A stretch of 64,000 nucleotides of DNA from an uncultured Candidatus Saccharibacteria bacterium (GTDB lineage: Bacteria > Patescibacteriota > Dojkabacteria > J137). The stretch's first letter is position 1, and every line of letters begins with the position of its first letter. Below the pieces are notes generated by a model. That model saw only the letters and a program-made list of their open reading frames with translations, made no database searches and was not told where the DNA came from. The stretch spans positions 68,190 to 132,189 of the forward strand of contig CAZSKK010000001.1 of assembly GCA_964607415.1 (NCBI GenBank), given 5' to 3'. The translations under genes were made by a program, and so were the position numbers. Shown in pieces: positions 13,494-54,054 of the stretch.

Positions 13494-14159
13494 TTACTCT
13501 TTGTTGTTTAGGTTTGACTTCTTAGCCAATTCAACAACATTATTGAATGCTTGGTCTCTATCTTTAGCAGTTTCAAAAGTAATTACACAACTACGATTTT
13601 TAAATAGCTGGATTATTAGATTTCCCAATTGAAATTTCCCAGACCAAAAGCGATTATAATTTTGGTCTCTACCCTCAAGTGGTTTTATCTTGTCTGAAAG
13701 TTCAAAAGAATTTGGTTTATTTCCTGTAAATAGGAAAATCATTTGTGATAATTTCTCAACTACATCAGAATCAAAGTTTGCGTAAATATCAAAACTTAAT
13801 GATTTATTATTTCGTTTTGTTAGACTAGATTTGTTTGTATACTCATTAACTCTCACAAGATAATAGGCTTCTCTAATTAAAGCTTCGTATTTATCTGCCT
13901 CTTCTTTTTCATCAGCTTTCTTTTTAAGTTCAAGTATCATTTCATCTGATATATCTTCACTTTTAAGACAATATTTTGTAATGTCCTGATATTTACCTGG
14001 TAGATATGAGTAACTAAAAAAATTGCACAAAATCTTTTCTACTCCTTTTTCAAGTAACTCATCTAATGATCTAAAGCTGTAATCCTCAAGCCCAATATTC
14101 ATAAATTCTTGTTTAAGAATTAGTGCTTGTGATTTAAGTATTTCTATTTCGTTTTCCAT
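13494..14159 (-). CDS. Hypothetical protein
   Basis: 221 aa ORF. Confidence 0.3.
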   Translation of the reverse strand: MENEIEILKSQALILKQEFMNIGLEDYSFRSLDELLEKGVEKILCNFFSYSYLPGKYQDITKYCLKSEDISDEMILELKKKADEKEEADKYEALIREAYYLVRVNEYTNKSSLTKRNNKSLSFDIYANFDSDVVEKLSQMIFLFTGNKPNSFELSDKIKPLEGRDQNYNRFWSGKFQLGNLIIQLFKNRSCVITFETAKDRDQAFNNVVELAKKSNLNNKE

Positions 14160-14362
14160 AGTGTTAAAATTAATTGTTAAGTAAGTAATTGCTTGATATA
14201 GGGTAGTTGTCTTTCAAGGGTGGCTATCCTATTATTATAAATCCTGCATCTGGGTCATTTACAATTGATAATCCTAATTCATTAAGTTTTAAGATTGTCT
14301 CTATTGTTATTGGTTTAGATTTCATAAATGTATTTAGTAATAAATAGAATTTGGTGTTTTGG

Positions 14363-14380
14363 AGTGGTTATCGCTTCCAC
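14363..14380. repeat. 18-nt motif gtggttatcgcttccact (copy 2), immediately 3' of the SSB gene
   Basis: Identical to 13469..13486; GTGG ... CCAC ends are self-complementary. Confidence 0.6.
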
Positions 14381-14387
14381 TTGATGA

Positions 14388-14750
14388 TTAATTAATCATT
14401 GATTCATCAATTACGATTTCATCAGGATTAATGCTTTCATCTGAACTTAGTTGAATTCTTAAAATTCTTCTAAGAACTACAGTTGAGTTAAACTTTTTCT
14501 CACCTGCTTTATTAGTGTATTCAGAAATTTCTAAATCACCATTGATTAAAACAAGTTCTCCTTTTTCAAAAGAAGTAAGAATATTTGTTAAGTTTCCAAA
14601 AGCAATAAGCGTATGGTAATTAACTTTATCTTTAGTAAGGTTGACAGCAACATTAACTCTAACGTAATCGGTCTTTCCGTCATTAGATTTTCTAATTTCA
14701 GGTTTAGCAGTAAGATTTCCGATAATTTCGACAGATTGTGTATTTCTCAT
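14388..14750 (-). CDS. ssb: Single-stranded DNA-binding protein (single OB fold)
   Basis: VEIIGNLTAKPEIRKSNDGKTDYVRVNVAVN ... YHTLIAFGNL ... typical SSB OB-fold pattern; 120 aa. Confidence 0.7.
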   Translation of the reverse strand: MRNTQSVEIIGNLTAKPEIRKSNDGKTDYVRVNVAVNLTKDKVNYHTLIAFGNLTNILTSFEKGELVLINGDLEISEYTNKAGEKKFNSTVVLRRILRIQLSSDESINPDEIVIDESMIN

Positions 14751-23427: not shown

Positions 23428-23975
23428 CCTTCAACCTTCTCCCAAACTGTAAATACTCGCTCAGGAGAATCCCAATATTCACATGTATAAAGTAAGATTT
23501 CTGAATCTTTTAGTGGCTTATTGTTATTTCCCATATAAATTTCCTTCACTTTATAAATATACTTTTGTCCCTCCCAATAAATTTCAGCTTCATCTCCAAT
23601 TTTTAGCTTATCTACATTAAACATTGTCTGATGGACATTGTAATCTTCTTGTAAGTAATCAACGCCAAATCTATGAGCTGCAATAACTAATGGGAAATCA
23701 TTTGTATTCAGATTTTGTACCCAACCACCAAAACGGAGATACCCTTCGTTTGTACTTAATTCAAGCTCAACTTCTATAGATGGAATAAGGATTCTATCTA
23801 TTTTAGAAACTTCTGTTTCTTTTACTTCTGTTGGAGCTTGAATAGTCTCATCTTCAAAATCTGGAATTGATGGTGGATTAAGCTTGTTATACAAGCCAAT
23901 TAGCAGCAATACTCCATGAAACATAATGATTATTGCAAAAGCGACTTTAATTTGTTTATCAGTGAATTCGTCCAT
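23379..23975 (-). CDS. Sortase-family transpeptidase (SrtA-like)
   Basis: N-terminal TM anchor; His motif LVIAAHRF (cf. IAGH); catalytic Cys in LLYTCEYW ... VFTVWEKV (cf. SrtA TLITCDDY ... VWEKRK). Confidence 0.6.
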   Translation of the reverse strand: MDEFTDKQIKVAFAIIIMFHGVLLLIGLYNKLNPPSIPDFEDETIQAPTEVKETEVSKIDRILIPSIEVELELSTNEGYLRFGGWVQNLNTNDFPLVIAAHRFGVDYLQEDYNVHQTMFNVDKLKIGDEAEIYWEGQKYIYKVKEIYMGNNNKPLKDSEILLYTCEYWDSPERVFTVWEKVEGQSSNGGTSGITGSNP

Positions 23976-24835
23976 AAGTTAGGATATGTAAAAATAAAAT
24001 GATGATTAATAAATTGCATAATTAAATCAGATCCAATGCTATACAAATTCTCATGCTGTCCTACAGCTCCATAAATGATGTTGCTTGTTCTGGTGAATTT
24101 ATCCCTACTGTAGATCAGATCATTCTCCTGAATATCTGGCTTTTCAATCATTCTCTCCATTGCACTTGAATTTCTTTCAGTAAGGAATAAAACAATTGGA
24201 AAACTTGAATAAACTTCCTGCCATTTCCCATAACTCATATATTCAAAGTACCTCATAAACTTTTCTGTAAGCTTTTTCTTGCCTTCTGTTCCAGTATCGT
24301 ACTCAATGAAAATTTCAAATACTTTGCCACTAATATCTAGTTTGCAATAAGAGTCGGGCTTTAATTCACGTCTTACCTTCTTACCAGTAGGGTAAGAGTA
24401 ATATTCATAAATATGCCTATTATTTTGCTCTCCCTTCCATTCAAGAATTTTAATATCTGGCAAATCTTTCAAACTTCTTACAAATTCAGCATAAAGATTT
24501 GCATTACTTAAAGTGTGTTCTAAGGCAAATAATTGAACTCGACCTTTCTTTTCTGGTATTGAAAGATGCTTAATACTAATATTAAATTCTCGGCTTAAAA
24601 CCTTTCCACCCAAATATTTGAGATAAAAAGCTTTAGAATTGTTCCCATATTGATAAAAGCCTATTAAATTTTCTTTTACACACTGTCTTAAAACTCTACT
24701 TACAGCTTCTCTTGATGTGTAAATTCCTTTTTCAATACACAACAAATTCAACACAGCTAAAGGTGTAAATTTAAAACTTTCAATTATCTTCAAAACTTCT
24801 ATTTTATTTTTTGTTATTTTGTATTTTTCCTTCAT
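23930..24835 (-). CDS. Replication-relaxation family protein (plasmid/ICE-type), tentative
   Basis: N-terminal wHTH-like region; central LKPDSYCKLDISGKVFEIFIEYDTGTEG, typical of the Replic_Relax fold; sits beside a structured putative origin locus. Confidence 0.4.
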   Translation of the reverse strand: MKEKYKITKNKIEVLKIIESFKFTPLAVLNLLCIEKGIYTSREAVSRVLRQCVKENLIGFYQYGNNSKAFYLKYLGGKVLSREFNISIKHLSIPEKKGRVQLFALEHTLSNANLYAEFVRSLKDLPDIKILEWKGEQNNRHIYEYYSYPTGKKVRRELKPDSYCKLDISGKVFEIFIEYDTGTEGKKKLTEKFMRYFEYMSYGKWQEVYSSFPIVLFLTERNSSAMERMIEKPDIQENDLIYSRDKFTRTSNIIYGAVGQHENLYSIGSDLIMQFINHHFIFTYPNLWTNSLINKLKSLLQ

Positions 24836-24859
24836 ATTTTTTTGTATTTAATCTACTTT

Positions 24860-25075
24860 TTTTGTTCTCTCTCCTCCTCATCTCTCTCCCTCCTCCCTCT
24901 CTCTTACTATCTATATATACTTTCCCTCCCCCTCCTTCCCGACCCTCTTGTCCACCACGTTAGTGGCACATGTATATATCTATATACATTGTCGAGGGAG
25001 AGATTGGGTTTGCTCCTGAAAGGAGGAAACCCAATCTGTCACCGATGGACAAGAGTGAGGAGGGAAGGACTCTTT
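24860..25075. promoter_or_regulatory. Structured non-coding locus: polypyrimidine tract plus nested inverted repeats (candidate oriT / replication origin)
   Basis: CT-only run 24866..24905; AT palindrome acatgtatata-tc-tatatacat; 17-bp imperfect inverted repeat gagattgggtttgctcc / ggaggaaacccaatctg around tgaaa; outer imperfect inverted repeat tccttcccgaccctcttgtcca ... tggacaagagtgaggagggaagga. Confidence 0.4.
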
Positions 25076-25114
25076 CGGAATAGTAGATCAAATTTTTAAA
25101 GATCATTTTTGATT

Positions 25115-27748
25115 CTATGGATGTAACTTCGATGTAACCTCTGAATTAATTGGTTTTGCTCCGTTGTTGTACCAATTCAAACGACTTTTTATCTCATTCA
25201 CAATCTCTAATTTTGACTTTCCTAAAGTTTGGTAAGCTTCGTCTATAAAATTTTCAACTGACTCATCATTGAAATTATCATCTCTTTCTTTAGGAACATT
25301 TATTGATAAAACGTCTTCTCCAACCCGAACATAAGAGTGAAATTCTGGGATCTCCATGACTTCATTTTTTAAAACTTTAGTTTGTAAATCATCAGCAATT
25401 TTCTGAGCATCATCTAAACCTGCTCGATAATAAATTCGAGTTTTTACATTACCCGTGACAGCCTCACTTACTTCATCCGGTAACTGTGCAAAAAACTGAT
25501 GAGCTAGTACAAGTTCTAATTTGAATTTTCTAGCTTCACTCAAAGCCACTGCAAAGTCCGAATTAGCAAAGTTTTGAAATTCATCTGCATAAATTACAAA
25601 AGGATGCCTTGCTTCCTGTTCAACACGTTTTGCCTCAAACCATAACTTCGACATTAGCAAAGATCCCAAAAGTTGCATTCCATCCATACCGATATTCTTT
25701 GATGAAAGATTTACTAAAAGTATTCTTGATCTTCTAATACAATCAGAAATCTCAATTGAGTTTTGAGATTGTGAAAATGTATAGAAAAGTGATCCTGTAA
25801 GAATTTGTGAAAGCTTATTATCAAAAGCCTGCCTGATATCAGGCCAAGCTTTGGAACTCTGATAATTCATCAAAGTGTTCTGCCAGAAACTTCTTAAGCT
25901 TTCATACTTAGATAAATCAATTGAAGATAAAATTGCATTCTTAACCTGTTCATTAAAGAACACCTCTTTAATTTCATTCAAAGTTGGAGCAAATTTTTTA
26001 ATTGTATCAATGTTTTGTTCAGTTCTTCCATGCTTATTTAACCATTCATTTTGAAAAACCATCAAAGTCTTCATTGAATTCTTTAACATTGGTTTAGCTG
26101 TTACTCCCATCCCTCCGTCAGGAGTTACACGCTTAATTAGCTTTGCAATAAATTCATAGTTTGAATCTACAAGTAAATCAATTTCTCGTTCACTTAGATC
26201 AACTGCAAAAAGTGGATTGTAACCTAAGAAGTAATCTTCGCTTCTGGTATCCCAAATTAGTACACTTTTGTTGTACGAAAAACTTTTATGAAGTTTATGC
26301 AATACATCCATAAAAAAGTCTTCGTGAGGATCGAGTAAAACTAAACCTCTCTTAATTCCTTTGAATATTCGATTGTCAATGTCTTGCAATACAAAGTTTT
26401 TAAGAATCGTTGATTTTCCTGTACCAGTTTGTCCAGTAACTACCATATGTCTTTTACGATTTTCAGTTATTAAGTAAACAGGTCTTTCTTTATCGTTTAC
26501 TGTATTAATTCCAAGTAAAAGATCATCTTTATTCACTTTTGTTCTGAACTTGTCTTTAGCTGGTACATTTACAAAAACGAATGATTCAATTGCAGGATTT
26601 AGTATTTCTGTTGGAAAGTGGTACATCATTGAAACTTCACGAGAACTTAATGTTGTTTGTGAAGTGAATAACTCTTTATAGAAAGGAAAAAGATCATCTT
26701 CTGGGTAAATGAATCTTTGTTTTAGATCATTTAGCTTATTATAGTTTTTCCTAATCAAGCTATTCAAAGATACACTTTTCATAGTTTCCAACGCTTGATC
26801 GAATTTAGTAATTAATTCCTGATTATCTTTCCCACTTACTGCTACTCGAATATAGGAATAAAAAGGAGTTTTAAATTTTTCGTTCAACTGCTTATTGAAA
26901 TCATCAACTTCCTCAGCTTGAGCTAATACTTTCCTTGGATCTGAGTCTGGAAGGCTTAGAATTGGGTCTAGCGATTGTTTTGAGCCAAATAATTTCATTA
27001 TCTCTCCCATTCCAACAAACAAAGCAATTGGAAGCATAGGTATTAAATACAAAAGATATGTTTCAAATCTTCTAAAGAACATTTGAGTCCATGTAATATC
27101 TGCTTTCTTAACTCTAAAATGTTCTTTAGCTTTTGCAATTGCATGTTTATCTCTTTTGGCAGGAGATAAAACAATTTGAAAGTACATCTTCTCATCTTCG
27201 GCTAACCCACTCATTGCATTAATAATTCCGTCAATTGGATCAACTGCGTCAAAGTCCTTTAAGTCCATTAAAAGATAAACTGGATGCTTTGAAGTCTTGT
27301 ATTCCGAAACTTTAGAATTATATTTAGAAAATGCAATAAGTGGATCATAAGCCAATTCTTCAAATTTGATTCTTTGTTTGTATGTTGTAAACAAACTTTG
27401 CTTAATCAAATTCTGCATCTTTTTTGTTGGAGTCCAAACAATAAACTTTATTCCCTTTTCATCAGAATAAATCTCAAAAGAAACTCTTTGTCTTTTAATT
27501 GCTGCTGTCAAATCATCAAAGAACCTTTGTAAAGCAAATCTCTCACCTCGAAAATTATCTGCATCTAGTGTTTGATATTTTGGTGGAATTATTTGTAACA
27601 AAAATCCGTTCTCCCTTGAAGCTTTATCACGAGCTAAAAATAAACGAATAAAGTATTGAAGGATATATCCAACTGTTATACATACTGATACTATCAGAAT
27701 TAATCTGATAGACGGATTTGTTTGTACAGCAACTAAAAGTTTATCCAT
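25115..27748 (-). CDS. Conjugative type IV secretion ATPase, coupling-protein-like (VirD4/TraG-like; a VirB4-like assignment is not excluded)
   Basis: N-terminal TM segments; Walker A VVTGQTGTGKST; Walker B FVIYADEFQNF followed by EARKFKLELVLAHQFFAQL (the RK ... Q motif of TraG/VirB4 ATPases); 877 aa. Confidence 0.5.
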   Translation of the reverse strand: MDKLLVAVQTNPSIRLILIVSVCITVGYILQYFIRLFLARDKASRENGFLLQIIPPKYQTLDADNFRGERFALQRFFDDLTAAIKRQRVSFEIYSDEKGIKFIVWTPTKKMQNLIKQSLFTTYKQRIKFEELAYDPLIAFSKYNSKVSEYKTSKHPVYLLMDLKDFDAVDPIDGIINAMSGLAEDEKMYFQIVLSPAKRDKHAIAKAKEHFRVKKADITWTQMFFRRFETYLLYLIPMLPIALFVGMGEIMKLFGSKQSLDPILSLPDSDPRKVLAQAEEVDDFNKQLNEKFKTPFYSYIRVAVSGKDNQELITKFDQALETMKSVSLNSLIRKNYNKLNDLKQRFIYPEDDLFPFYKELFTSQTTLSSREVSMMYHFPTEILNPAIESFVFVNVPAKDKFRTKVNKDDLLLGINTVNDKERPVYLITENRKRHMVVTGQTGTGKSTILKNFVLQDIDNRIFKGIKRGLVLLDPHEDFFMDVLHKLHKSFSYNKSVLIWDTRSEDYFLGYNPLFAVDLSEREIDLLVDSNYEFIAKLIKRVTPDGGMGVTAKPMLKNSMKTLMVFQNEWLNKHGRTEQNIDTIKKFAPTLNEIKEVFFNEQVKNAILSSIDLSKYESLRSFWQNTLMNYQSSKAWPDIRQAFDNKLSQILTGSLFYTFSQSQNSIEISDCIRRSRILLVNLSSKNIGMDGMQLLGSLLMSKLWFEAKRVEQEARHPFVIYADEFQNFANSDFAVALSEARKFKLELVLAHQFFAQLPDEVSEAVTGNVKTRIYYRAGLDDAQKIADDLQTKVLKNEVMEIPEFHSYVRVGEDVLSINVPKERDDNFNDESVENFIDEAYQTLGKSKLEIVNEIKSRLNWYNNGAKPINSEVTSKLHP

Positions 27749-27754
27749 AGAGAT

Positions 27755-28420
27755 TTAAGATTTAAAATTAATATCGTTTGGTTGTGTAAATTCTTCTTTT
27801 TCAATACTTTCAAAAGATTCAACAAAAATAGTATTATCAAAAGCATTCTTTCCTGTTTTAGTCTTGTAAGGTCTAATTTGAAGTTTTCCTAGAACTTTTA
27901 CAAAATCACCTTTCTTAACTTTTGAGTTTTTATCAGCTACATCGCCAATAAAAAGCAAATTGTAGAAAGTTGTATATTCTTGTTCTTTATCGTTCTTGTC
28001 TTTAAATTTATTATCGGAGGCAATAGCAATCTTAAAGTAAGAATTACCTTTTTGAGATTCTTTGACCTCAGGATTAGCAGTTAAATTTCCAACAACAGAA
28101 ATTGAAACTGCATCCTTAGTCTCTTCGTCAGCAATTGGTTTTATATCTTGAACAAAAACAATATGCTTTGCATCTTGTTGGCGGTAAATTCCTGTAGTTT
28201 CGATCAAAGATTTCTCCACCATTCCTTTGATACCATCGAAATTTTGTTCTTCTAAAAAAAGATGAAATGGAATATGTGTTTCTGATTCCACACCTTCTTG
28301 GTTTGTGAAGTGGTAAGTAAAATCAATATCCATTTCTGCATATTGTTTACCTTCAACTGACTCTACGAACACAGGAGCTTGTAACAATCTACCTTTGATT
28401 GTAATTATCTGATTGGACAT
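27755..28420 (-). CDS. SSB-like protein with two OB-fold repeats
   Basis: ITIKGRLLQAPVF ... and a second repeat SISVVGNLTANPEVKESQKGNSYFKIAIASD ... TTFYNLLFIGDVA ... FVKVLGKL. Confidence 0.55.
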   Translation of the reverse strand: MSNQIITIKGRLLQAPVFVESVEGKQYAEMDIDFTYHFTNQEGVESETHIPFHLFLEEQNFDGIKGMVEKSLIETTGIYRQQDAKHIVFVQDIKPIADEETKDAVSISVVGNLTANPEVKESQKGNSYFKIAIASDNKFKDKNDKEQEYTTFYNLLFIGDVADKNSKVKKGDFVKVLGKLQIRPYKTKTGKNAFDNTIFVESFESIEKEEFTQPNDINFKS

Positions 28421-28444: not shown

Positions 28445-29356
28445 TTAATCACCAACCATTGAAATACTTTTGAGTGCATTGTTTCTTAATTCATTGAAGT
28501 TGAGCTTTTCAGTTTCAACTTTCTTTGAATTAACTAGACTTGTAAGATCTACTTGGTTCTTTTTTGCCTGATCGGCTTTAACCAGTTCCTTAAGTCGTAA
28601 ATTAAACATTGCACCTGGTTTATCAAGTGGTTTGGTTTTATCGGCATTCGCAACACTTTGCATCTGTTTCACTTCTAAAAATGCTTTCTGGATTTGTACA
28701 TCAGTAATTTCTCCTTTGTTCTTTCGATTGATAACTTTTTGATAAAACTTAATGCTTTTCTCATCTGATAATTCTTTTGCTAAATATTTAGCTTCAACAT
28801 CGAATGAATCTTTACTAATCTTTGGAATCTCAAGCTGAGTAAATAAATTAGTCTTTTTACTCTCTAATCCTTTTTCTAAACGTAACGTTGTATATATCTT
28901 CTTAGTTGCTTCTACTTCCTTGTCTTCTACTTTGTCAGTTACTTTCACGGCTTCTTGAACATGAGATTCTTCGTACTCTTGAACTGGTATTTTTCCTACT
29001 TCTGGATGTGGCAAATTCTCCTCATCTGGAAAAAGCTTATATACCTCTTCCAATTCAATAATTTGATAAATATTTGGCTTATTTAAACCTGATTGTTTTA
29101 CAGTTATTAATCCAAACTCTTTTAATTCAGCCAGATCATCTCGGATCGTATCTATAGATACATTTAATTTCTCTGCTAATGTTTTTTGTGACGGATAGCA
29201 TTCCATATTTTCTCTAGCGTAATTTAATAAAAGAGCATAAAGGGTTTTCGCATTTCTCGACAATCCTTTAGCCATAAGAACAACTTTTGGTAACTTAACA
29301 AAGCCACCCTTAATAACTCTGTACTTTTTTTGGGTTTGTTCTTTTTCTTTAGCCAT
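28445..29356 (-). CDS. RepA_N-family replication initiator / replisome-organiser-like HTH protein
   Basis: FVKLPKVVLMAKGLSRNAKTLYALLLNYARE ... YPSQKTLAEKLNVSIDTIRDDLAELKEFGLI matches the RepA_N N-terminal signature (F.klPk ... ls..AK.lY.lLl). Confidence 0.55.
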   Translation of the reverse strand: MAKEKEQTQKKYRVIKGGFVKLPKVVLMAKGLSRNAKTLYALLLNYARENMECYPSQKTLAEKLNVSIDTIRDDLAELKEFGLITVKQSGLNKPNIYQIIELEEVYKLFPDEENLPHPEVGKIPVQEYEESHVQEAVKVTDKVEDKEVEATKKIYTTLRLEKGLESKKTNLFTQLEIPKISKDSFDVEAKYLAKELSDEKSIKFYQKVINRKNKGEITDVQIQKAFLEVKQMQSVANADKTKPLDKPGAMFNLRLKELVKADQAKKNQVDLTSLVNSKKVETEKLNFNELRNNALKSISMVGD

Positions 29357-30708: not shown

Positions 30709-31581
30709 TTAATTAACTCTCAAAGTAAAATTTGAACTTACATTTAAACCACTTTTAGAAACTTGAACTGAACCATTAATATTTCCTGAATTACCTGCTG
30801 GTACAGTGAACGAAACTGCCATATTCCCACCTCCATCAGATTGAGATAAGGTGTAAACTCCTGTACCTGATTGCCAATTAACAGTCACATATCCGAAAGC
30901 ACCGCTTACAGGATTTCCATTTTGATCTTTAACACTACAATTCACTCCAACGCTTTGACCTACAAATGGATTAGTATTTGTTATTGAACAACTCATTCTT
31001 AAACCAGTCACAGGACTTGGTTGCGGTGGAGGTGGTTCAGGTGTTGGAGTTGGAGCAGGCGGATTCGGCTGCGGTTGTGGTGTAGGAGCTGGTTGTTGAC
31101 TAGGAGGATTTACAGCTTCTGGATCAGGCTTTCTCTCCACTTCCCGATTTACATTTATAGTTACCCTATTCTCAATGCCATTAGTGTTTTTAACCTTTAC
31201 TTCAATTGCATTTTTGCCTTCAACAAGCTCAATTTTATATTCAAAATTTCCATCGCCTGCTACAGTAATTTTATTACCATTAACCCAAGCTTCATTTCCT
31301 ATATCAGTAGATGCAACTAAAACAACTGATGTTTCTTTTGTATTAAACCCATCAGTTAAATTCTTAATTTCTAATTTAGGTTTTGTTTCATCTGTTGGTT
31401 CTGGCTCTGGATTTTCTACTGGATATGAAGCTGGTGTTTCCGTGCTTCCTTGTGTAAAGTTTAGTTGTCCTGTTGAATATAGTTCTATAAATAAAGCTAT
31501 AGAAAAAGGAATCAACAAAGTGATTACTAAAAATATGTATCCATGTTTTAAGTTTTTCTTAACCTCCTGCTTCTTGTTCAT
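30709..31581 (-). CDS. Membrane-anchored surface protein with an Ig-like domain and a proline-rich linker
   Basis: N-terminal TM; PPSQQPAPTPQPQPNPPAPTPTPEPPPPQPSP linker. Confidence 0.4.
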   Translation of the reverse strand: MNKKQEVKKNLKHGYIFLVITLLIPFSIALFIELYSTGQLNFTQGSTETPASYPVENPEPEPTDETKPKLEIKNLTDGFNTKETSVVLVASTDIGNEAWVNGNKITVAGDGNFEYKIELVEGKNAIEVKVKNTNGIENRVTINVNREVERKPDPEAVNPPSQQPAPTPQPQPNPPAPTPTPEPPPPQPSPVTGLRMSCSITNTNPFVGQSVGVNCSVKDQNGNPVSGAFGYVTVNWQSGTGVYTLSQSDGGGNMAVSFTVPAGNSGNINGSVQVSKSGLNVSSNFTLRVN

Positions 31582-33415
31582 ATTTTCTTTGGCTGTCTAA
31601 TTTAGATAAATCCTCAGCAGATGAAGAGAATATTGATTTCTCAATTTCTGTTGGGTACACGTAAATGTGTGAATGAATGTTCCCCTTAATAAATAAAGCC
31701 TGTCCTTTTGTAAGCCTTGTAATGTAATCTCGTTCTATGTCTGAAAGATCAAATGCTTTAACTAAATTTGGAATTGATTGTTTCTTTTGAGAAAGAATTA
31801 ATGCTGTATCTGCATTTTTAGCAATCACAGATCCTTGAGGATGTTCTAAAAAGTCATCAACATCTTGAGAAATGCAAATAACACCAAGATTGTATTTTCT
31901 TCCTCGTCTAACTAAGTTCTCAATAAAAGAAGCTGAAGATTCATCCTTTAGTAGCAAGTGAGCTTCATCAATTATTAGGACTTTCTTTTTCCTGTCAGAA
32001 AGCACTTTCTGCCAGATGAAATTTGAAAGATAATATATTGATGCTTGCTTTTCAGCTTCAGGGACTCGCTGAATGTTAAATACAATCATTGGAGCATTGA
32101 AATCGACATCAGAAGTTGTAGGATTATCATATAGATCTCCAAGCTCCCCCTTTTTAGAGTATTCTAAAAGTTCAACTGCAATTCTTTTTCCATCAGATCC
32201 TTGTTTCTCAAAACTTTTAATAAGGTCTGATACAGTTGGAGGCTCTTTTGAATAAGTTGAAGGATCTTCTAATATAATTCCTTTCTCGATGTAAGTTTCA
32301 TTTACAGCTTTACTGACAATTCCTCGATTGTAAGTTTTGTTAGATAACCAGATTCGGATAAGTCCTTTTACAACTCCGAGATGAGTTCTCATAGTTTCCT
32401 TTGAGTCGATATCATTGGAGAAAAATTGAAGTGGATTTACTTTAGTTTTTGATTCTGGATTAATATCTATGTTCGTTCCTCCAACATAATCACAAAGAGC
32501 TTTAAATTCTCCTTCAGGATCTATAACATAGACTGAAATACCTCTAAATAACGATCTGTAAGCTTCTAATTTAGCAGCGAAAGATTTTCCCGCACCAGAA
32601 GTCGCAAAGATGATTCCATTGTAATTTTTAGAAGTTTTTGAAAAACGATCGAAGCGAACTTTTGAGCCTCCATTTGTGATTCCATAAAAGATTCCATCGG
32701 GATCATTTAGAGCTGCTGTTGTAAAAGGTAATGATGAAGATACATTTGAACTTGTTAATGAAAACTCTTCACCTATTCTATTTATTCCTGATGGTAATAA
32801 GCTTTCAATTCCTTGTCTTTCTTTGAAAACAAGAGGATGTAATTTAATTTGCTTTGCATAAGCTAACTCTTTAAGTGATTTCTCTGATTTAGTAAGTTCC
32901 TTTAAATCATAATTCTCAAATTTTAAATACATACTCATTGAGTAGAGTTTTTCAACTCCTCTAACTATGGAGTCTTCAACTGCTCTTGCATCTTGAATTG
33001 CTTGCTCAATGTCTGTTGTATGAATCTTACCTTTTTCAACTTTTGAATAGTATTGAGCTGAAAGGTTTGTAATTCTATTTCTAAGTCCTGATAAAGCTTT
33101 TTGAGAATCAATTGGTCTAATAAATTGAGATATTACTAATGGCTCGCTGTAATTTGTTAAATCATAAAGCCAATTAGGGTAAATAATCTGAGGAAATTCA
33201 GATACCATAAGTGTACTTATATATTTATCTGATAACTCAATGTACTTTCCTTTATTTACAAATTCATAAAGCAAAGTATCATCAGAATCAAACTTGGATA
33301 TTTCTTTATTCCTTGAAAAATCTTTAACAAGTGTTCGACCTTTAGCTTCAATTTTGAGGTTAAAATCTAATAGAGCAAACCTTGTTTGTACAAAGTAGTA
33401 TTTGAATGGATTCAT
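31559..33415 (-). CDS. VirB4/TrsE-like conjugative ATPase
   Basis: Walker A GIIFATSGAGKSF; Walker B KKVLIIDEAHLLL; ARRGRKYNLGVICISQ (RK ... Q motif); 618 aa. Confidence 0.6.
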   Translation of the reverse strand: MNPFKYYFVQTRFALLDFNLKIEAKGRTLVKDFSRNKEISKFDSDDTLLYEFVNKGKYIELSDKYISTLMVSEFPQIIYPNWLYDLTNYSEPLVISQFIRPIDSQKALSGLRNRITNLSAQYYSKVEKGKIHTTDIEQAIQDARAVEDSIVRGVEKLYSMSMYLKFENYDLKELTKSEKSLKELAYAKQIKLHPLVFKERQGIESLLPSGINRIGEEFSLTSSNVSSSLPFTTAALNDPDGIFYGITNGGSKVRFDRFSKTSKNYNGIIFATSGAGKSFAAKLEAYRSLFRGISVYVIDPEGEFKALCDYVGGTNIDINPESKTKVNPLQFFSNDIDSKETMRTHLGVVKGLIRIWLSNKTYNRGIVSKAVNETYIEKGIILEDPSTYSKEPPTVSDLIKSFEKQGSDGKRIAVELLEYSKKGELGDLYDNPTTSDVDFNAPMIVFNIQRVPEAEKQASIYYLSNFIWQKVLSDRKKKVLIIDEAHLLLKDESSASFIENLVRRGRKYNLGVICISQDVDDFLEHPQGSVIAKNADTALILSQKKQSIPNLVKAFDLSDIERDYITRLTKGQALFIKGNIHSHIYVYPTEIEKSIFSSSAEDLSKLDSQRKYEQEAGG

Positions 33416-34170
33416 TAATGTTTTTCTAAAATGTATTGTGATAAATCCAAGATCTCGCTTGTATTAAGTTCGATTAACTTAACCTTTGTTGTTTCAAGAA
33501 GTCTTATAAATATTTCTTGATCTTCTAGTTTTCTCTTTGCTCCATCTAAAGTTTTTGATTGAGCAGTAATAATCAAGTAGAAAGTCCTTTCCATCGTTTG
33601 ATTAAGTTTTTTGTATTCATCTAAATATTCAGTAGCTCTTTTTCGTAAGATTCCCGTAAGATCTTTAATTCTTCTTTCTTCGGTTTCTAAGTTCTGATCG
33701 TTAAATGAATACCTTTGTAAGGTAATAATCTGAATAGGATTTTTTAAAGCAAATAGAGCTTGCTGAATGTAGCTTTTAAAAGCATTAACCTCTTCTTCAG
33801 AACTCATTGAAAGATTGATTGGCTCAATTCTATAGACTTTAGAATAAGAACCATCAGCATTTATTAAGATTCCGTCACTAATATCTTTTGCTAGAATAGT
33901 TCGCTGCTTTTTGGAATTAATAAAATGGGAAAAGGCATCAAGCACAAACTTATGAAAAGGTCTTCCATAAATATCAAACATTAAAGGAATCAAGACTGCT
34001 CCAATGACAATTTCAATAATGATCTTTTGATCTGATGAAAGATTCTTAGCTCCACTCCATAGAAATAGAGATAAAACGAAACCTATAGTTATTACTATAT
34101 TTCTTCGATTAACTAACAGACTTAATAAGCCTGTGTCTTTATTTAACTTTGGCGGAACTACTTCTTGCAT
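33415..34170 (-). CDS. Hypothetical membrane protein (T4SS component candidate)
   Basis: Two N-terminal TM segments; located between the VirB6-like and VirB4-like genes. Confidence 0.3.
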   Translation of the reverse strand: MQEVVPPKLNKDTGLLSLLVNRRNIVITIGFVLSLFLWSGAKNLSSDQKIIIEIVIGAVLIPLMFDIYGRPFHKFVLDAFSHFINSKKQRTILAKDISDGILINADGSYSKVYRIEPINLSMSSEEEVNAFKSYIQQALFALKNPIQIITLQRYSFNDQNLETEERRIKDLTGILRKRATEYLDEYKKLNQTMERTFYLIITAQSKTLDGAKRKLEDQEIFIRLLETTKVKLIELNTSEILDLSQYILEKH

Positions 34171-41491: not shown

Positions 41492-43114
41492 ATGTTACCA
41501 GAGTTTGAGCCATCAACAGACAAAAACTTAAAGATTCCTAGATACTTGGAAAGGACGGTAGCTTTCTATATTCGTGTCAGTGATCCAAAGCAATTGGAGA
41601 AATTCAGCGTTCCTACACAAATCGCTCAATCAAGAGAATATGCTAAACGAGAAAAAATGCGTGAAGTCGGTATCTTCATAGAAAAGGGACAATCAGCTAA
41701 AACTTCAGATAGAACTGAGCTTCAAAACTTACTTCATTTCATCACAAAAAATAAGAATAAGGTTGATTATGTCTTAGTATATAAGATTGATAGATGGGCA
41801 AGAAATAGCATGGACTATTATGCTCTTAAAACTATACTTCTTAAAAATGGTACAAATTTAATCTCATTAATTGAATCACAAGTAGATGATTCACCTACAG
41901 GAAGGTTTCTTGAAAGCTTGTTTTCTGCTGTTGCTCAATTAGATAATGAAAATAAAGGGATTAGAGTTAGAGAATGTATGCGTAGCAAGGCGTTAGATGG
42001 TCATTACCCTGGTAAACCTTATTATGGATATAAAAATCATCCGAAATCAAAGATTCTAGTTAGAGATTTAGAGTATTACGAACACATAAAAAATGCACTT
42101 ATTGATTTTTCTTTAGGGACTACAATACCTGAATTAGTTGAAAGATTTAGAAGAGCTGGTTTGAGAACTAAAGGATGGAACAAGACACCAAGAAGAGAAT
42201 TTAATACAAAAGATATTTGGAAGATACTTACTAAAAGTAGGTTTTACGCTGGTTATTTTGACTGGGGAGAAGTTAAGGATCAATTCGGTAAACACGAGAC
42301 TATGATAACTTGGAAGCAACATACAAAGATACAATCTTTACTCTATCAGAAATCACAATGTGTTTCTCAAGAGCTTATCCAAGATGAACCTTATTTTATA
42401 TTTAATTTTAACCTTACTGGCAAGGAAGGATTTGTGCATTGCAATATCTGCAATAGTAGACTACGTTCTTGCTTCTCCAAAGGTAAAATGGGTACTAGAT
42501 ACCCTTATTATTATTGTTATAACAAAAATTGCACTATGGATAAAAAATCAATCAAAAAACATGAATTAGAACAATTATTCGAAGTATTATTGCAAAAAAT
42601 TACACCTTCAGAAAAGTTCGCTAACCTTTTTAAACATTCAGTAGTTGAACTATGGGAGAAAGAACATGCTATTTATGATGAAAGACATAAACATGCAGAG
42701 AAAAAGCTAGATGATCTAAAAGATAAGAAAGATTACATTAACAAGATGCACAGAACTGGCAGATATAGTGATGAAGAATACGATGAAGAAATAGCCCTAT
42801 GGAAAAATGAAATGGCAGTTGTTCGTCTGGAAATAAATGAAAACTTAATTGATCGAAATGAACTAGAAGTTTTATTGGTTCAAGCAGAACTATTTATAAC
42901 TAGGCTCGAACCCTTGTATCGTTCCTTCAGTACAGAGAATAAGAGACGTTTTTCAACATTAATCTTCCCAAAAGGTGTACGATACGAAAATGGCAAGATC
43001 GAACCCGTGGAAAAGTCCACGCTATTTGAATATCTGGGTGATTTACAGGCTAAAAATGTTGATGTAAATCAAATGGTGACCTCACGGGGAATCGAACCCC
43101 GATTGCCAGGATGA
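41492..43114 (+). CDS. Large serine recombinase (integrase)
   Basis: Catalytic region AFYIRVSDPKQ ... DRWARN; recombinase and Cys-rich zinc-ribbon (C...C ... C..C) domains, C-terminal coiled coil; 540 aa; last 41 nt overlap the tRNA-Glu gene. Confidence 0.85.
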   Translation: MLPEFEPSTDKNLKIPRYLERTVAFYIRVSDPKQLEKFSVPTQIAQSREYAKREKMREVGIFIEKGQSAKTSDRTELQNLLHFITKNKNKVDYVLVYKIDRWARNSMDYYALKTILLKNGTNLISLIESQVDDSPTGRFLESLFSAVAQLDNENKGIRVRECMRSKALDGHYPGKPYYGYKNHPKSKILVRDLEYYEHIKNALIDFSLGTTIPELVERFRRAGLRTKGWNKTPRREFNTKDIWKILTKSRFYAGYFDWGEVKDQFGKHETMITWKQHTKIQSLLYQKSQCVSQELIQDEPYFIFNFNLTGKEGFVHCNICNSRLRSCFSKGKMGTRYPYYYCYNKNCTMDKKSIKKHELEQLFEVLLQKITPSEKFANLFKHSVVELWEKEHAIYDERHKHAEKKLDDLKDKKDYINKMHRTGRYSDEEYDEEIALWKNEMAVVRLEINENLIDRNELEVLLVQAELFITRLEPLYRSFSTENKRRFSTLIFPKGVRYENGKIEPVEKSTLFEYLGDLQAKNVDVNQMVTSRGIEPRLPG

Positions 43115-43148
43115 AAACCTGGTGTCCTAACCGTTAGACGATAAGGCC
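43074..43148 (-). tRNA. tRNA-Glu (anticodon UUC)
   Basis: Folded by hand: acceptor GGCCTTA / TGAGGTC (two G-U pairs); D arm GTCT ... GGAC; anticodon stem CCAGG / CCTGG with loop TTTTCAT (UUC); 4-nt variable loop; T arm CGGGG-TTCGATT-CCCCG; discriminator A + CCA. Confidence 0.85.
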
Positions 43149-49714: not shown

Positions 49715-49942
49715 TTTGTATTGCAGCACAATGTGATGCAAACTTTCAAATGTTACTATTAACTCACCTCACCCGTCTTTCCCCGATAAATCGGGATCAA
49801 GACTACCCTCTCCTTCTGGAGAGGGAACTAGCACAAAACCCTTCTCCAGAAGGATGAGAATACATATTATGTATTCGAATGCAGCTATTAGCTCCACTCG
49901 ACAGCACAATGTGCTGTCTCAGGATGAGGTGAAAAATTAGTA
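49715..49942. repeat. Highly structured intergenic element with at least 5 GC-rich hairpins and terminal repeats
   Basis: Hairpins cccgat-aa-atcggg, ccctctcc-ttct-ggagaggg, ccttctcc / agaagg, tacata-t-tatgta and gacagcac-aat-gtgctgtc; direct repeat cagcacaatgtg at 49724 and 49902; outer inverted repeat cacctcac / gatgaggtg. Confidence 0.45.
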
Positions 49943-50299
49943 ATGGAAAAATCATTATATATAAATAAAAAACTTAATGCTTACGCACGAAAATTTCGTA
50001 AAGATTCAACTTTAGGTGAAGCAATTCTCTGGTCTAAATTGAAAAGTAGAAGTTTCCTTGGTCTTAAATTTCGGCGCCAAGTTCCAGTTAGCAACTACAT
50101 CCTCGACTTCTACTGCCCTAAACTTAACCTTGCAATTGAAATCGATGGTTCTACGCACGATGAAAATAAATATGATTATGATGTTGAAAGACAAAAAGAA
50201 ATTGAATCATTAGGGATTACAGTTTTAAGGTTTACAGAACATGAGGTTAAAACTAAACTTGATGATGTTTTACAAACGATTGAGCAAATAATAAAATGA
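49943..50299 (+). CDS. DUF559 endonuclease-domain protein (restriction-endonuclease-like fold)
   Basis: YILDFYCPKLNLAIEIDGSTHD, the characteristic DUF559 core. Confidence 0.7.
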   Translation: MEKSLYINKKLNAYARKFRKDSTLGEAILWSKLKSRSFLGLKFRRQVPVSNYILDFYCPKLNLAIEIDGSTHDENKYDYDVERQKEIESLGITVLRFTEHEVKTKLDDVLQTIEQIIK

Positions 50300-51889: not shown

Positions 51890-52255
51890 ATGAAATATGT
51901 ACTAAAACTTGAACAACTTGCTATATTTTTATTTTCAGTATATTTGTATTCTCAGAGCAAATTTGATGGATGGCTCTATATTTTGTTGTTCTTTACTCCA
52001 GATTTAAGCATGCTTGGCTATTTAGGAGGTAATAAAATTGGTGCAATAACGTATAATTTTATTCACCACCAAGCAGTTGCAGTGACAATATTTATTTTAG
52101 GACAAACTTTAGATATAAAAGCTTTTGCAATTTATGGATTAGTAATGTTAGGACACTCATCGTTAGACAGGGTCTTAGGCTTTGGATTAAAGACATTTAA
52201 AGGATTTAAAGAAACGCATTTAGCACAAACCCCTCCTTTAATTCCTCCCCTTTGA
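51890..52255 (+). CDS. Small membrane protein (DUF4260-like)
   Basis: Three or four hydrophobic segments; 121 aa. Confidence 0.35.
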   Translation: MKYVLKLEQLAIFLFSVYLYSQSKFDGWLYILLFFTPDLSMLGYLGGNKIGAITYNFIHHQAVAVTIFILGQTLDIKAFAIYGLVMLGHSSLDRVLGFGLKTFKGFKETHLAQTPPLIPPL

Positions 52256-52260
52256 TTAAA
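52237..52260. repeat. 24-nt perfect palindrome cctccccttt-gatt-aaaggggagg (copy 1). The stop codon of the upstream gene lies in the loop, and the right arm supplies the SD of the downstream gene
   Basis: 10-bp stem; second copy at 53989..54012 with loop aatt. Confidence 0.7.
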
Positions 52261-52270
52261 GGGGAGGAAG

Positions 52271-52807
52271 ATGGCTAAGCCAGCTGGAGGGGTTGTACAG
52301 AAAATACGCAAACTCTTTAACAACTTAACTATGACGGAACTTAAGAATCAAATTTTAAAATTCATTTCTTCAAGAAAACTTGTTTCCATTGCAACTATTG
52401 ATGGCAAAAATAATCCGTGGATTTGCAATGTTTACTTTTCACAAGACGATGACTTGAACATTTACTTTATTTCTCCAAAAGATACAAACCATTCAAAGCA
52501 TATTAAAAATAATGCAAATGTGGCATTTACAATAAACTGGTATGAAGAAGCCAAATTAGATAATAGAAAGGCAATTCAAGCGATAGGCATTTGTAAGCAG
52601 GTTGGACTAAAAGATCTAAAGTACAGTATTAAATGTATGATTAAAAAATATCCAGACTGGAAGGATTTCTTAACTTTTGAAAAAGTAACTAAAGATTTAA
52701 TTAAATCGAAAGTTTATAAAATTACACCAAGTTATATTAAGTATTGGGACGATGAGCTGTTTGGGGAGGAGGGAGTAAGGGAAATGATAGTGGTAAATAG
52801 TAACTAG
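52271..52807 (+). CDS. Pyridoxamine 5'-phosphate oxidase-like (split-barrel, FMN-binding) family protein
   Basis: KLVSIATIDGKNNPWICNVYF ... NIYFISPKDTNHSKHIKNNANVAF. Confidence 0.45.
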   Translation: MAKPAGGVVQKIRKLFNNLTMTELKNQILKFISSRKLVSIATIDGKNNPWICNVYFSQDDDLNIYFISPKDTNHSKHIKNNANVAFTINWYEEAKLDNRKAIQAIGICKQVGLKDLKYSIKCMIKKYPDWKDFLTFEKVTKDLIKSKVYKITPSYIKYWDDELFGEEGVREMIVVNSN

Positions 52808-53965: not shown

Positions 53966-54027
53966 AACCCCTCCGGCACCAAGGTGCCACCTCCCCTTTA
54001 ATTAAAGGGGAGGAATTAAAGGAGGGG
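53966..54027. repeat. Nested palindromic element containing copy 2 of the 24-nt palindrome
   Basis: Outer aacccctcc / ggaggggtt; inner ggcacc-aa-ggtgcc and cctccccttt-aatt-aaaggggagg (53989..54012). Confidence 0.65.
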
Positions 54028-54054
54028 TTCTATTCCTTAACTAAAATAAAACCC

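What the first reader, a model, noticed from the sequence alone, without database searches (positions are those of the whole stretch)
24860..25075. Polypyrimidine tract with nested inverted repeats between the replication-relaxation gene and the coupling ATPase: candidate oriT or origin
- A 215-bp ORF-free stretch (the 85-aa plus-strand ORF here is a low-complexity artefact) contains a 40-nt run of only C/T on the top strand.
- It also holds an AT-rich palindrome (acatgtatata-tc-tatatacat), a 17-bp inverted repeat with a 5-nt loop (gagattgggtttgctcc-tgaaa-ggaggaaacccaatctg), and an outer imperfect inverted repeat of about 25 bp (tccttccc ... tcttgtcca / tggacaaga ... gggaagga).
- This strand-asymmetric, hairpin-rich organisation, placed between the putative relaxase-type gene and the T4SS coupling ATPase, is what conjugative nick sites and some rolling-circle or theta origins look like.
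Basis: seen in the sequence. Interest (0 to 1): 0.55.

Follow-up and report, generated by a model that had tools for sequence, protein, structure and literature searches.

The report
Probable transfer origin of a CPR conjugative element
The hairpin-rich, GC-rich gap between the coupling ATPase and the relaxase gene is very probably the transfer origin (oriT) of a conjugative element in a candidate-phyla-radiation bacterium; its core is conserved with compensating changes in distant relatives and also sits alone in small relaxase-less elements, while the eye-catching polypyrimidine tract is only a lineage-specific add-on.

Summary
It folds more stably than any other of 1,596 160-nt windows in the 64 kb.

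Both flanking genes are on the minus strand: an 877-aa VirD4-like coupling ATPase and a 301-aa Replic_Relax (PF13814, MOBC-type) relaxase. They lie in a ~30-kb integrated element with a Gram-positive-type T4SS and a serine recombinase next to tRNA-Glu. The host is probably Saccharibacteria/Patescibacteria.

In 15 distinct related elements the same gap holds the same architecture, down to 35% relaxase and 55% coupling-protein identity:
- long covarying outer stems;
- a conserved hairpin (H1);
- an invariant CTCCCTCGAC after it;
- variable inner hairpins.

Seven further loci carry the structure without relaxase or coupling protein nearby, mostly (5 of 7) beside a serine recombinase.

The tested MOBC plasmid pAM373 has the same layout (coupling gene, repeats, 142-bp compound inverted repeat, relaxase) but no sequence similarity.

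Best reading: a MOBC-type oriT (confidence about 0.7). The polypyrimidine tract is absent in most relatives and is not core. The nick site and nicked strand are inferred, not shown. This is a new member of a known kind, of moderate interest.

The parts
25115..27748 (-). Type IV coupling ATPase (877 aa, VirD4/TraD-like, DUF87/TrwB P-loop). Its stop codon abuts the element.
   Evidence: Pfam DUF87 and TrwB_AAD_bind. NCBIfam TraD-type partial hits. 315 homologues, mostly from Patescibacteria.
25093..25104 (-). Conserved box GATCTTTAAAAA (minus-strand reading) just after the coupling-gene stop. Role unknown.
   Evidence: Present in the window, L007, L009, L012 and L017.
25082..25092 (-). Outermost stem P0, 5' arm (minus-strand reading TTTGATCTACT).
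   Evidence: I2. The arms differ in sequence but still pair in L007, L009, L012, L014 and L017.
25046..25069 (-). Outer stem P1, 5' arm. It is pyrimidine-rich on the minus strand: TCCTTCCC, a bulge, then CTCTTGTCCA.
   Evidence: I7 and I17. There is a compensatory change in L007. Cognate arms pair far better than non-cognate arms across 22 sequences.
25001..25037 (-). Conserved hairpin H1: AGATTGGGTTTCCTCC, loop, GGAGCAAACCCAATCT. It is 16 bp with one C.C mismatch.
   Evidence: I1. In 15 sequences, 9 of 15 pairs show changes on both sides, and G.U occurs in 2 of about 225 cells.
24991..25000 (-). Invariant CTCCCTCGAC directly 3' of H1 on the minus strand. This is the candidate nick region.
   Evidence: Identical in all 22 distinct homologous sequences, although they were retrieved with a pattern that requires it. 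The ICE loci L001-L015 were found through proteins, not this pattern, and all carry it. It is single-copy in the window and 0 matches are expected by chance.
24970..24989 (-). Inner hairpin H2 (AT palindrome ATGTATATA / TATATACAT). Its sequence varies between lineages.
   Evidence: I14. L007 has TTTTTT/AAAAAA at the same place. Other clades have a different hairpin here, often with a GTGTGT loop.
24954..24967 (-). Inner hairpin H3 (G-CCAC-TAAC-GTGG-T). It is found only in the window's clade.
   Evidence: It is absent in L009-L037.
24933..24953 (-). Outer stem P1, 3' arm. It is purine-rich on the minus strand: GGACAAGAG, a GGTC bulge, then GGGAAGGA.
   Evidence: I7 and I17.
24865..24932 (-). 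Polypurine (minus strand) / polypyrimidine (plus strand) insertion between the P1 and P0 3' arms. It includes a 15-19-nt tandem duplication at 24866-24903 and a 24-nt mirror repeat at 24881-24904. It is lineage-specific.
   Evidence: (D1). It is absent or replaced in L009, L012, L015, L018, L021, L026, L035 and L037.
24847..24857 (-). Outermost stem P0, 3' arm (AGTAGATTAAA).
   Evidence: I2.
23930..24835 (-). Relaxase, 301 aa, Replic_Relax (PF13814) = MOBC superfamily. The predicted layout is an N-terminal winged helix plus a PD-(D/E)XK-like core.
   Evidence: Pfam 56.5 bits against a cut-off of 25.3. PF13814 is equated with MOBC in PMC5357655. Invariant H107, D161, E178, D180 and K192 across 37-100% identity.

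Best explanation
This is the origin of transfer (oriT) of a roughly 30-kb integrative conjugative element in a Patescibacteria (probably Saccharibacteria) genome.

What is shown. The gap between the coupling-ATPase gene and the MOBC-type relaxase gene holds a branched inverted-repeat structure. Outer stems P0 and P1 enclose a conserved hairpin H1, an invariant CTCCCTCGAC, and one or two variable hairpins. This structure is conserved at the same position in distant relatives and also occurs alone in relaxase-less elements.

What is inferred.
- The relaxase docks on the region through its N-terminal winged helix.
- It cuts one strand at or next to the invariant motif, within or just 3' of the H1 3' arm.
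- The coupling ATPase then hands the strand to the T4SS.
- The long covarying stems flank the cut. After a full round of transfer, the two ends of the linear strand can therefore re-pair across the nick. This would help termination and re-sealing. It would matter particularly for MOBC enzymes, for which no covalent DNA adduct has been detected (PMC12857230, PMC6736028).
- The relaxase-less elements would be mobilised in trans through the same site.

The polypurine/polypyrimidine tract is a lineage-specific insertion inside the outermost stem. At most it is an accessory site, either binding repeats for the relaxase or leader sequence for its gene. The same site may also prime rolling-circle replication of the excised element.
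For: - **Relaxase family.** The downstream gene is Replic_Relax at 56.5 bits against a cut-off of 25.3. PF13814 is equated with MOBC in PMC5357655.
- **Transfer machinery around it.** The upstream gene is a coupling ATPase. Also present are VirB4, an M23 peptidase, SSB, an adhesin and a sortase-like gene, and a serine recombinase next to tRNA-Glu.
- **Conserved synteny.** The order coupling gene, 130-330 nt gap, relaxase, sortase-like gene holds in L001-L015, at coupling-protein identity 55-98% and relaxase identity 37-93%.
- **Conserved architecture.** It is the same in 22 distinct sequences. The 19-nt hairpin-arm-plus-motif differs at 1 position between the window and L015.
- **Covariation.**
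  - H1 has 9 of 15 pairs with changes on both sides.
  - Cognate P1 arms give mostly -25 to -48 kcal/mol, against a non-cognate mean of about -19. The cognate arm is best in 13 of 22 sequences.
  - In the window's clade, 93% of cells are paired and 6 pairs are compensatory, a level reached by 0 of 500 shuffles.
- **Pair chemistry.** Pairs are almost all Watson-Crick on both strands, with G.T at 2-4%. This fits a DNA repeat better than an RNA.
- **Orphan copies.** Seven distinct loci carry the structure without a coupling gene or relaxase. Instead they have an XRE regulator, a small Phage_rep_O-like protein, a large serine recombinase and methylase cargo. L016 and L022 have an H1-plus-motif identical to that of conjugative loci L015 and L021.
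- **Known analogue.** pAM373 is typed MOBC and has the same layout: coupling gene, 5 repeats at 12-nt spacing, a 142-bp compound inverted repeat, then the replication-relaxation gene. TraX of pAD1 binds 5 direct repeats 70-120 bp from its nick (PMC12857230).
- **Uniqueness.** It is the most stable 160-nt window and the only GC-rich multi-repeat cluster in the element.
Against: - No nicking, binding or mobilisation data exist for this or any related element.
- There is no sequence similarity to any plasmid in PLSDB or to the pAM373 oriT.
- The relaxase links to the pAM373 relaxase only weakly: hhalign probability 45%, E 2e-4. tblastn against plasmids found nothing.
- The small elements also carry a Phage_rep_O-like protein, and the conjugative element carries an HTH_36/RepA_N-like protein. 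A replication-origin role is therefore not excluded.
- Absence of a relaxase in the small elements is limited by contig ends; five of the seven are contigs of 3-8 kb.
- The structure lies inside a long same-strand gene array and is probably transcribed, so an RNA-level role cannot be ruled out.
- The nicked strand is undetermined.
Confidence: 0.7

Rival explanations
1. It is a single-strand origin or single-strand promoter. On this reading the branched hairpin forms on the transferred strand in the recipient and recruits RNA polymerase or primase. That would start complementary-strand synthesis or early transcription, as with ssoA, ICEBs1 sso1 or F Frpo. It could act alone or in addition to oriT.
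For: The structure is a long imperfect hairpin of 140-230 nt with almost only Watson-Crick pairs. SSB genes lie nearby. Both element types would benefit from such a site. The loop of H3 reads TAACG(T) on the minus strand, one mismatch from my recollection of the ssoA CS-6 motif TAGCGT.
Against: H3 and its loop exist only in the window's clade. No promoter-like hexamer pair was found in the region. The invariant part is a hairpin followed by a fixed 10-mer, which is the pattern of a nuclease target rather than a primer start. The tight adjacency to the relaxase gene over deep divergence is not explained. A relaxase-less element still needs an oriT, and this is the only element these loci share with the conjugative elements.
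Confidence: 0.12
2. It is a vegetative replication origin of the excised element. It would be recognised by the winged-helix initiator-like proteins: HTH_36/RepA_N-like 28445..29356 in the conjugative element, and Phage_rep_O-like proteins in the small elements.
For: Four of the seven relaxase-less loci and the conjugative element encode a Rep-O/HTH_36-type protein. Replic_Relax proteins have been linked to plasmid replication as well as relaxation (PMC3424549).
Against: The initiator-like proteins of the two element types show no detectable similarity to each other. Yet the H1-plus-motif can be identical between the two types. There are no iterons or AT-rich unwinding element conserved across clades. 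In conjugative elements the structure always abuts the relaxase gene, not the HTH_36 gene 3.4 kb away.
Confidence: 0.07
3. It is a structured RNA: a leader, processing or stability element, or small RNA within the T4SS-relaxase transcript, regulating relaxase expression.
For: It lies between two same-strand genes with no terminator, so it is probably transcribed. In the L021 clade the purine-rich 3' arm of P1 ends about 10 nt before the relaxase ATG and could mask its ribosome-binding site. The fold z-score is about -5.
Against: There is no Rfam match. G.U pairs are very rare and there is no clear strand bias. In the small elements the structure sits between divergent or unrelated genes, not upstream of a relaxase.
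Confidence: 0.06
4. It is the recombination site (attP or res) of the large serine recombinase.
For: Five of the seven relaxase-less loci and the conjugative element encode large serine recombinases.
Against: The element is integrated in the window, with chromosomal genes on both sides and the recombinase gene at tRNA-Glu. The structure is nevertheless intact and lies 17 kb from the recombinase gene. An attP would be split on integration. Serine-recombinase sites are about 50 bp, not a 140-230 nt covarying hairpin.
Confidence: 0.02

Closest known systems
oriT2 of pAD1 and the oriT of pAM373 (Enterococcus faecalis; MOBC relaxase TraX/Orf8; Francia & Clewell 2002, Francia et al. 2013)
   Same: It lies between the coupling-protein gene and the Replic_Relax/MOBC relaxase gene, all on one strand. 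It has a compound inverted repeat of about 140 bp made of outer and inner arms, with short repeats next to it. An SSB gene lies further downstream of the relaxase in both. I verified this on the pAM373 record. Relaxase binding to 5 direct repeats at a distance from the nick is reported in PMC12857230.
   Different: There is no sequence similarity, and the relaxases are barely alignable. In the window's structure the repeat is branched, with H1, the invariant 10-mer and H2/H3 inside the outer stems. In pAM373 the repeats are 12-nt units on the coupling-gene side. Here the only repeat-like sequence is a purine tract on the relaxase side, and most relatives lack it.
Classical oriTs of HUH relaxases (R388, F, RP4, RSF1010): a recognition hairpin followed by a conserved single-stranded nick sequence
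   Same: A conserved inverted repeat is immediately followed on one strand by an invariant short sequence. The nick region is conserved across the family while the flanking repeats vary.
   Different: The enzyme here is a PD-(D/E)XK-type protein, not an HUH enzyme. MOBC relaxases have shown no covalent adduct (PMC12857230, PMC6736028). The rule that the hairpin lies 5' of the nick on the transferred strand may therefore not apply.
Relaxase-less mobilisable elements that carry only an oriT
   Same: Seven loci carry the structure without any relaxase or coupling gene in the sequence available; five of them also encode a serine recombinase. In two of them (L016, L022) the hairpin-plus-motif is identical to that of full conjugative elements.
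   Different: This has not been shown experimentally. Several of these contigs are short, so a distant relaxase cannot be excluded.
Single-strand origins and promoters (ssoA/ssoU of rolling-circle plasmids, sso1 of ICEBs1, Frpo of F)
   Same: A long imperfect hairpin on one strand of a transferred element.
   Different: The defining motifs are not conserved here, and no promoter-like hexamers were found.

Membership tests
MOBC-type oriT (pAD1 oriT2 / pAM373 type) | Lies next to a MOBC (Replic_Relax, PD-(D/E)XK) relaxase gene | tested here: met
   PF13814 at 56.5 bits against a cut-off of 25.3, E 4.9e-15. The same holds in L001-L015, L017, L018, L021, L026, L035 and L037.
MOBC-type oriT (pAD1 oriT2 / pAM373 type) | Located between the coupling-protein gene and the relaxase gene | tested here: met
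   pAM373 has the same order.
MOBC-type oriT (pAD1 oriT2 / pAM373 type) | Large inverted repeat of about 140 bp | tested here: met
   P1 spans 24933-25069 (137 nt), and P0 extends it to 24847-25092. pAM373 has a 142-bp compound repeat.
MOBC-type oriT (pAD1 oriT2 / pAM373 type) | Series of short direct repeats next to the inverted repeat that bind the relaxase | tested here: inconclusive
   The purine tract has a 15-19-nt tandem duplication, and L007 has a 21-nt one. Several clades have no such tract. Binding is untested.
MOBC-type oriT (pAD1 oriT2 / pAM373 type) | Sequence similarity to a characterised MOBC oriT | tested here: not met
   There is no blastn match in PLSDB and no shared motif with pAM373 13950-14660.
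MOBC-type oriT (pAD1 oriT2 / pAM373 type) | Site- and strand-specific nicking by the cognate relaxase, and cis-acting mobilisation | not testable with these tools
   This needs nick mapping and mating assays.
MOBC relaxase (for the 301-aa protein) | Conserved PD-(D/E)XK-like acidic and lysine residues, and an N-terminal winged helix | tested here: inconclusive
   H107, D161, E178, D180 and K192 are invariant across 37-100% identity. hhalign to the pAM373 relaxase covers residues 8-170 at only 45% probability. The AlphaFold model was unusable at pLDDT 34. No solved relative was found.
ssoA-type single-strand origin | Conserved RS-B and a CS-6 (TAGCGT) terminal loop | tested here: not met
   Only the H3 loop, TAACG(T), resembles CS-6, and H3 is absent outside the window's clade. 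The motif definitions are from memory.
Frpo-like single-strand promoter | -35 and -10 hexamers with proper spacing formed in the hairpin stem | tested here: not met
   No promoter-like site was found between 24836 and 25114 on either strand. This is a simple consensus scan only.
Any Rfam RNA family | Covariance-model match | tested here: not met
   There was no hit at gathering score. Only chance-level hits appeared at E up to 10.

The most novel reading that the evidence does not exclude
There are two linked readings.

(1) This conserved site, shared by full conjugative elements and by small relaxase-less elements (most encoding a serine recombinase), marks an active conjugation and mobilisation network inside Patescibacteria. 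The T4SSs of these bacteria are currently thought to be mostly co-opted for non-conjugative roles (bioRxiv 10.1101/2025.01.22.634366).

(2) The site works as a 'self-splinting' oriT. A restriction-enzyme-like relaxase leaves no covalent adduct. The long inverted repeat that flanks the nick re-pairs the two ends of the transferred strand, so that a host ligase can close it. In the window's lineage the mirror-repeat purine tract might add a triplex or melting aid.
Probability: 0.25. Interest if true: 0.7.

Novelty: new member of a known kind. Interest (0 to 1): 0.5.

Why it matters
Patescibacteria (CPR) are a huge, mostly uncultured branch of bacteria. Their widespread T4SS genes have been argued to serve functions other than conjugation, because relaxases are rare in them (bioRxiv 10.1101/2025.01.22.634366). 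No oriT is mentioned in that study (the term does not occur in its text).

This site is sharply defined and deeply conserved next to a MOBC relaxase. Copies on relaxase-less elements add to it. Together they give a concrete, clonable handle for two things: testing whether these bacteria conjugate, and building mobilisable vectors for them.

It would also add a second, very distant example to the poorly understood MOBC class. In that class, how a non-covalent, restriction-enzyme-like relaxase starts and finishes transfer remains an open question.

Tried and rejected
**Searches that found nothing or too little**
- Rfam at gathering score and at E up to 10 found nothing relevant.
- tblastn of the relaxase against PLSDB and blastn of the region against PLSDB gave no match.
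- The relaxase alignment scanned against metagenome contigs found nothing. Against genome contigs it found only one locus, which is the same as L006.
- The relaxase profile against solved structures found nothing.
- An HMM built from the CPR relaxases does not detect the pAM373 relaxase, and hhalign to it is weak.

**Analyses that failed or had to be replaced**
- AlphaFold on the 5-sequence alignment gave pLDDT 34 and was unusable, so no fold search was run.
- MAFFT plus RNAalifold on 15 divergent sequences recovered only H1. The outer arms are too divergent to align by sequence. I replaced this with an alignment-free cognate versus non-cognate arm test.
- Comparing the folds of the two strands did not settle which strand folds. 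G.T pairs were 31 against 20, and the complementary strand was slightly more stable.
- A search for direct repeats of the tRNA-Glu end, to locate the far boundary of the element, found none of 12 nt or more.
- The papers describing pAD1 oriT2 in detail are not in the held library. I therefore read the pAM373 sequence directly instead.

**Rejected readings and excluded hits**
- The 85-aa ORF as a gene: homologues have frame-breaking indels.
- attP: the structure is intact in the integrated element.
- H-DNA as a conserved feature: the mirror repeat is not kept in L007.
- Fifteen pattern-hit loci in GC-rich (0.47-0.65) contigs, inside long ORFs where I checked, are chance matches and were excluded.

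Full report
**The observation.** It lies between two minus-strand genes, 25115..27748 and 23930..24835.
- the hairpin at 24998-25017 / 25021-25040;
- the AT palindrome at 24970-24978 / 24981-24989;
- the two-part outer repeat at 24945-24954 / 25046-25055 and 24933-24940 / 25062-25069.

There is also a small third hairpin (24954-24967) and an outermost stem (24847-24857 / 25082-25092).

The 'pure' pyrimidine run is really 41 of 42 (24865-24906, with A at 24880). Only one other 30-nt purine stretch, an A-rich one near 60.25 kb, occurs in the 64 kb. The 85-aa ORF across the region is not conserved in frame in relatives.

The region folds far better than shuffles, with z about -5.3 and -5.8 on the two strands. 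It is the single most stable of 1,596 160-nt windows (-73.7 against -24.8, sd 7.2 kcal/mol). It is a 50% GC island in a 32% GC genome. No Rfam family matches.

**Context.**
- The downstream gene is a Replic_Relax protein (PF13814, 56.5 bits against a cut-off of 25.3). This family is equated with MOBC relaxases (PMC5357655) and assigned to the PD-(D/E)XK nuclease superfamily (PMC3424549).
- The upstream gene is a VirD4/TraD-like coupling ATPase.
- Further upstream lie SSB, an HTH_36/RepA_N-like protein, an M23 peptidase, a split VirB4, a DUF11 adhesin and regulators.
- A large serine recombinase ORF runs into tRNA-Glu.
- Downstream lie a sortase-like gene, methyltransferases and a second SSB.

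This is an integrated conjugative element of roughly 30 kb.

One close relative of the relaxase is in a MAG labelled Candidatus Saccharibacteria. The coupling-protein homologues are annotated as Patescibacteria lineages. The window's own proteins sit on a 585-kb NCBI contig.

**Comparative evidence.** Only four relaxase homologues were found by word-indexed search, but the coupling protein has hundreds. Contigs for these homologues all show the order coupling gene, 130-330 nt gap, Replic_Relax, sortase-like gene.

The gaps share one architecture:
- a long outer stem whose arms differ completely between lineages;
- a conserved hairpin H1 (GAGTGATTGGGTGG...CCACCCAATCACTC in most, AGATTGGGTTTCC...GGAAACCCAATCT in the window's clade);
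- the invariant CTCCCTCGAC directly after it;
- one or two variable hairpins;
- the closing arm.

The window and L015 share 55% coupling-protein identity and 37% relaxase identity. Yet 18 of the 19 bases of hairpin arm plus motif are identical.

A DNA pattern built from this core found 31 more loci. Sixteen of them (13 distinct sequences) carry the full structure. The rest are chance matches in GC-rich contigs, inside long ORFs where examined.

**Is the structure selected?**
- H1 has 9 of 15 pairs with changes on both sides in 15 sequences.
- The outer arms are too divergent to align, so I tested them without an alignment. Each 5' arm pairs with its own 3' region far better than with those of unrelated sequences. 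Cognate energies are mostly -25 to -48 kcal/mol against a mean of about -19, and the cognate arm ranks first in 13 of 22.
- Within the window's clade, 93% of cells are paired and 6 pairs are compensatory, a level reached by 0 of 500 shuffles.
- Almost all pairs are Watson-Crick on both strands. G.T is 2 of about 225 cells in H1 and 2-4% overall, with no clear strand bias. This fits a DNA inverted repeat better than an RNA.

**Copies without a relaxase.** Seven distinct loci (L016, L019, L022, L027, L028, L033, L042) carry the structure but no coupling gene or relaxase in the available sequence. This was checked by tblastn and by a family HMM. Between them, these loci carry an XRE regulator, a small Phage_rep_O-like protein, a large serine recombinase and methyltransferase cargo next to the structure; no single locus was shown to carry all four.

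L016 and L022 have an H1-plus-motif identical to that of full elements L015 and L021. This is what oriT-only mobilisable elements look like. The caveat is that several of these contigs are short.

**Comparison with a tested system.** pAM373 is typed MOBC and is the sister system of pAD1, whose oriT2 and relaxase TraX were characterised by Francia and Clewell. On one strand, its record shows in order:
- the coupling-type gene;
- five repeats at 12-nt spacing;
- a 142-bp compound inverted repeat (18-bp outer and 25-bp inner arms);
- small ORFs;
- the replication-relaxation gene;
- anti-defence genes and SSB.

A review states that TraX binds five direct repeats 70-120 bp from its nick and that no covalent intermediate was seen (PMC12857230; also PMC6736028). 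The window's layout is the same in kind.

There is no sequence similarity, and the relaxases are barely alignable. This is therefore an analogue within the MOBC class, not a copy of a known oriT.

**The polypyrimidine tract.** On the gene strand it is a purine tract. It is inserted between the 3' arms of P1 and P0. It holds a 15-19-nt tandem duplication and a perfect 24-nt mirror repeat.
- L007 has a different purine-rich 21-nt duplication at the same place.
- L014 and L017 have other purine-rich spacers.
- L009 and L012 have short AT-rich ones.
- In L018, L021, L026, L035 and L037 the relaxase ATG follows the outer stem by about 10 nt.

The tract is therefore not part of the conserved machinery. 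By analogy with the pAD1 repeats it could be a lineage-specific docking site for the relaxase's N-terminal domain. It could equally be slippage-prone leader sequence. I cannot tell which.

A weaker version of the same asymmetry is general in the family: the 5' arm of P1 is pyrimidine-rich and the 3' arm purine-rich.

**Mechanism.** I consider a MOBC-type oriT the best explanation (confidence about 0.7). The relaxase would recognise the region and cut one strand at or beside the invariant 10-mer, and the coupling ATPase would deliver the strand to the T4SS.

The long stems flank the cut. The two ends of the transferred strand can therefore re-pair, which would aid termination and re-sealing. 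Francia and Clewell suggested a similar role for the pAD1 repeat; that is my recollection of their abstract.

All of these steps are inferred. What is shown is the anatomy, its conservation and covariation, its position, and its presence in relaxase-less elements.

The nicked strand is open. The hairpin-then-nick rule of HUH systems points to the minus strand. My reading of the review's wording for pAD1, taken with the pAM373 layout, may point to the other strand.

**Rivals.**
- A single-strand origin or promoter (0.12): possible as an added role, but the defining motifs are not conserved and no promoter-like site was found.
- A replication origin for the winged-helix initiator-like proteins (0.07): these proteins are not detectably related between the two element types, while the site can be identical.
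- A structured RNA (0.06): there is no Rfam hit, almost no G.U, and the gene context in the small elements is inconsistent.
- attP (0.02): the structure is intact in the integrated element and lies 17 kb from the recombinase.

**Novelty.** A recent survey found only 109 relaxases in 103 CPR genomes. MOBC was the commonest, and only 15 lay near virB4. The term oriT does not occur in the paper's text (bioRxiv 10.1101/2025.01.22.634366). The present site is thus a new member of a known kind. It is ordinary in position and logic, but it is a first well-delimited oriT candidate for these bacteria. It has an unusually conserved core and apparent hitch-hiking elements. Interest is moderate (0.5).

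Noticed in passing
window 49760-49940: This is the second most stable 160-nt window of the 64 kb (-70.4 kcal/mol). It is an intergenic region with nested inverted repeats (CTCACCTCACCC...GGATGAGGTG; CCCTCTCCTTCTGGAGAGGG / CCCTTCTCCAGAAGGATGAG) just upstream of a DUF559/Vsr-like endonuclease gene (49943..50299). It has no Rfam match.
   Followed up: partly
window 52228-52283 and 53975-54029: Two copies of a GC-rich palindrome, about 56 nt by my reading of the overlapping repeat arms (AACCCCTCCTTTAATTCCTCCCCTTTRATTAAAGGGGAGGAATTAAAGGAGGGGTT), lie at gene ends in the chromosomal part. It looks like a REP-like repeated hairpin or a bidirectional terminator.
   Followed up: partly
L022, L028, L033, L042 (about 60-130 nt upstream of the structure): These relaxase-less loci share another small hairpin followed by CAGAAGAAACAA (for example TTGCCCACCTGTTTCATCTCCGAAACCAGAAGAAACAATC). 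This could be an element end, a recombinase site or a second protein-binding site.
   Followed up: no
window 41492-43148: The large serine recombinase ORF (41492..43114, plus strand) overlaps the 3' part of tRNA-Glu (43074..43148, minus strand). This marks one end of the element. No direct repeat of 12 nt or more was found for the other end, which probably lies left of the SSB gene 14388..14750.
   Followed up: partly
window 31559-34170: VirB4 is split into a 251-aa TraC-like N-terminal ORF (33415..34170) and a 618-aa ATPase ORF (31559..33415). The same split occurs in L001, L002 and L007, so it is not an assembly error.
   Followed up: no
window 25093-25104: The conserved box GATCTTTAAAAA (gene strand) lies directly after the coupling-gene stop. 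It is kept in the window, L007, L009, L012 and L017, although the flanking sequence differs.
   Followed up: no
window 27755-28420 and 14388-14750: There are two SSB genes in one element. One is a 221-aa form with a roughly 100-aa N-terminal extension, right next to the coupling gene. The other is an ordinary 120-aa form at the far end. pAM373 also has two.
   Followed up: no
window 23930-23975: The relaxase ORF overlaps the start of the 198-aa sortase-like ORF by 46 nt. This relaxase-sortase pairing is conserved in all related conjugative loci.
   Followed up: no
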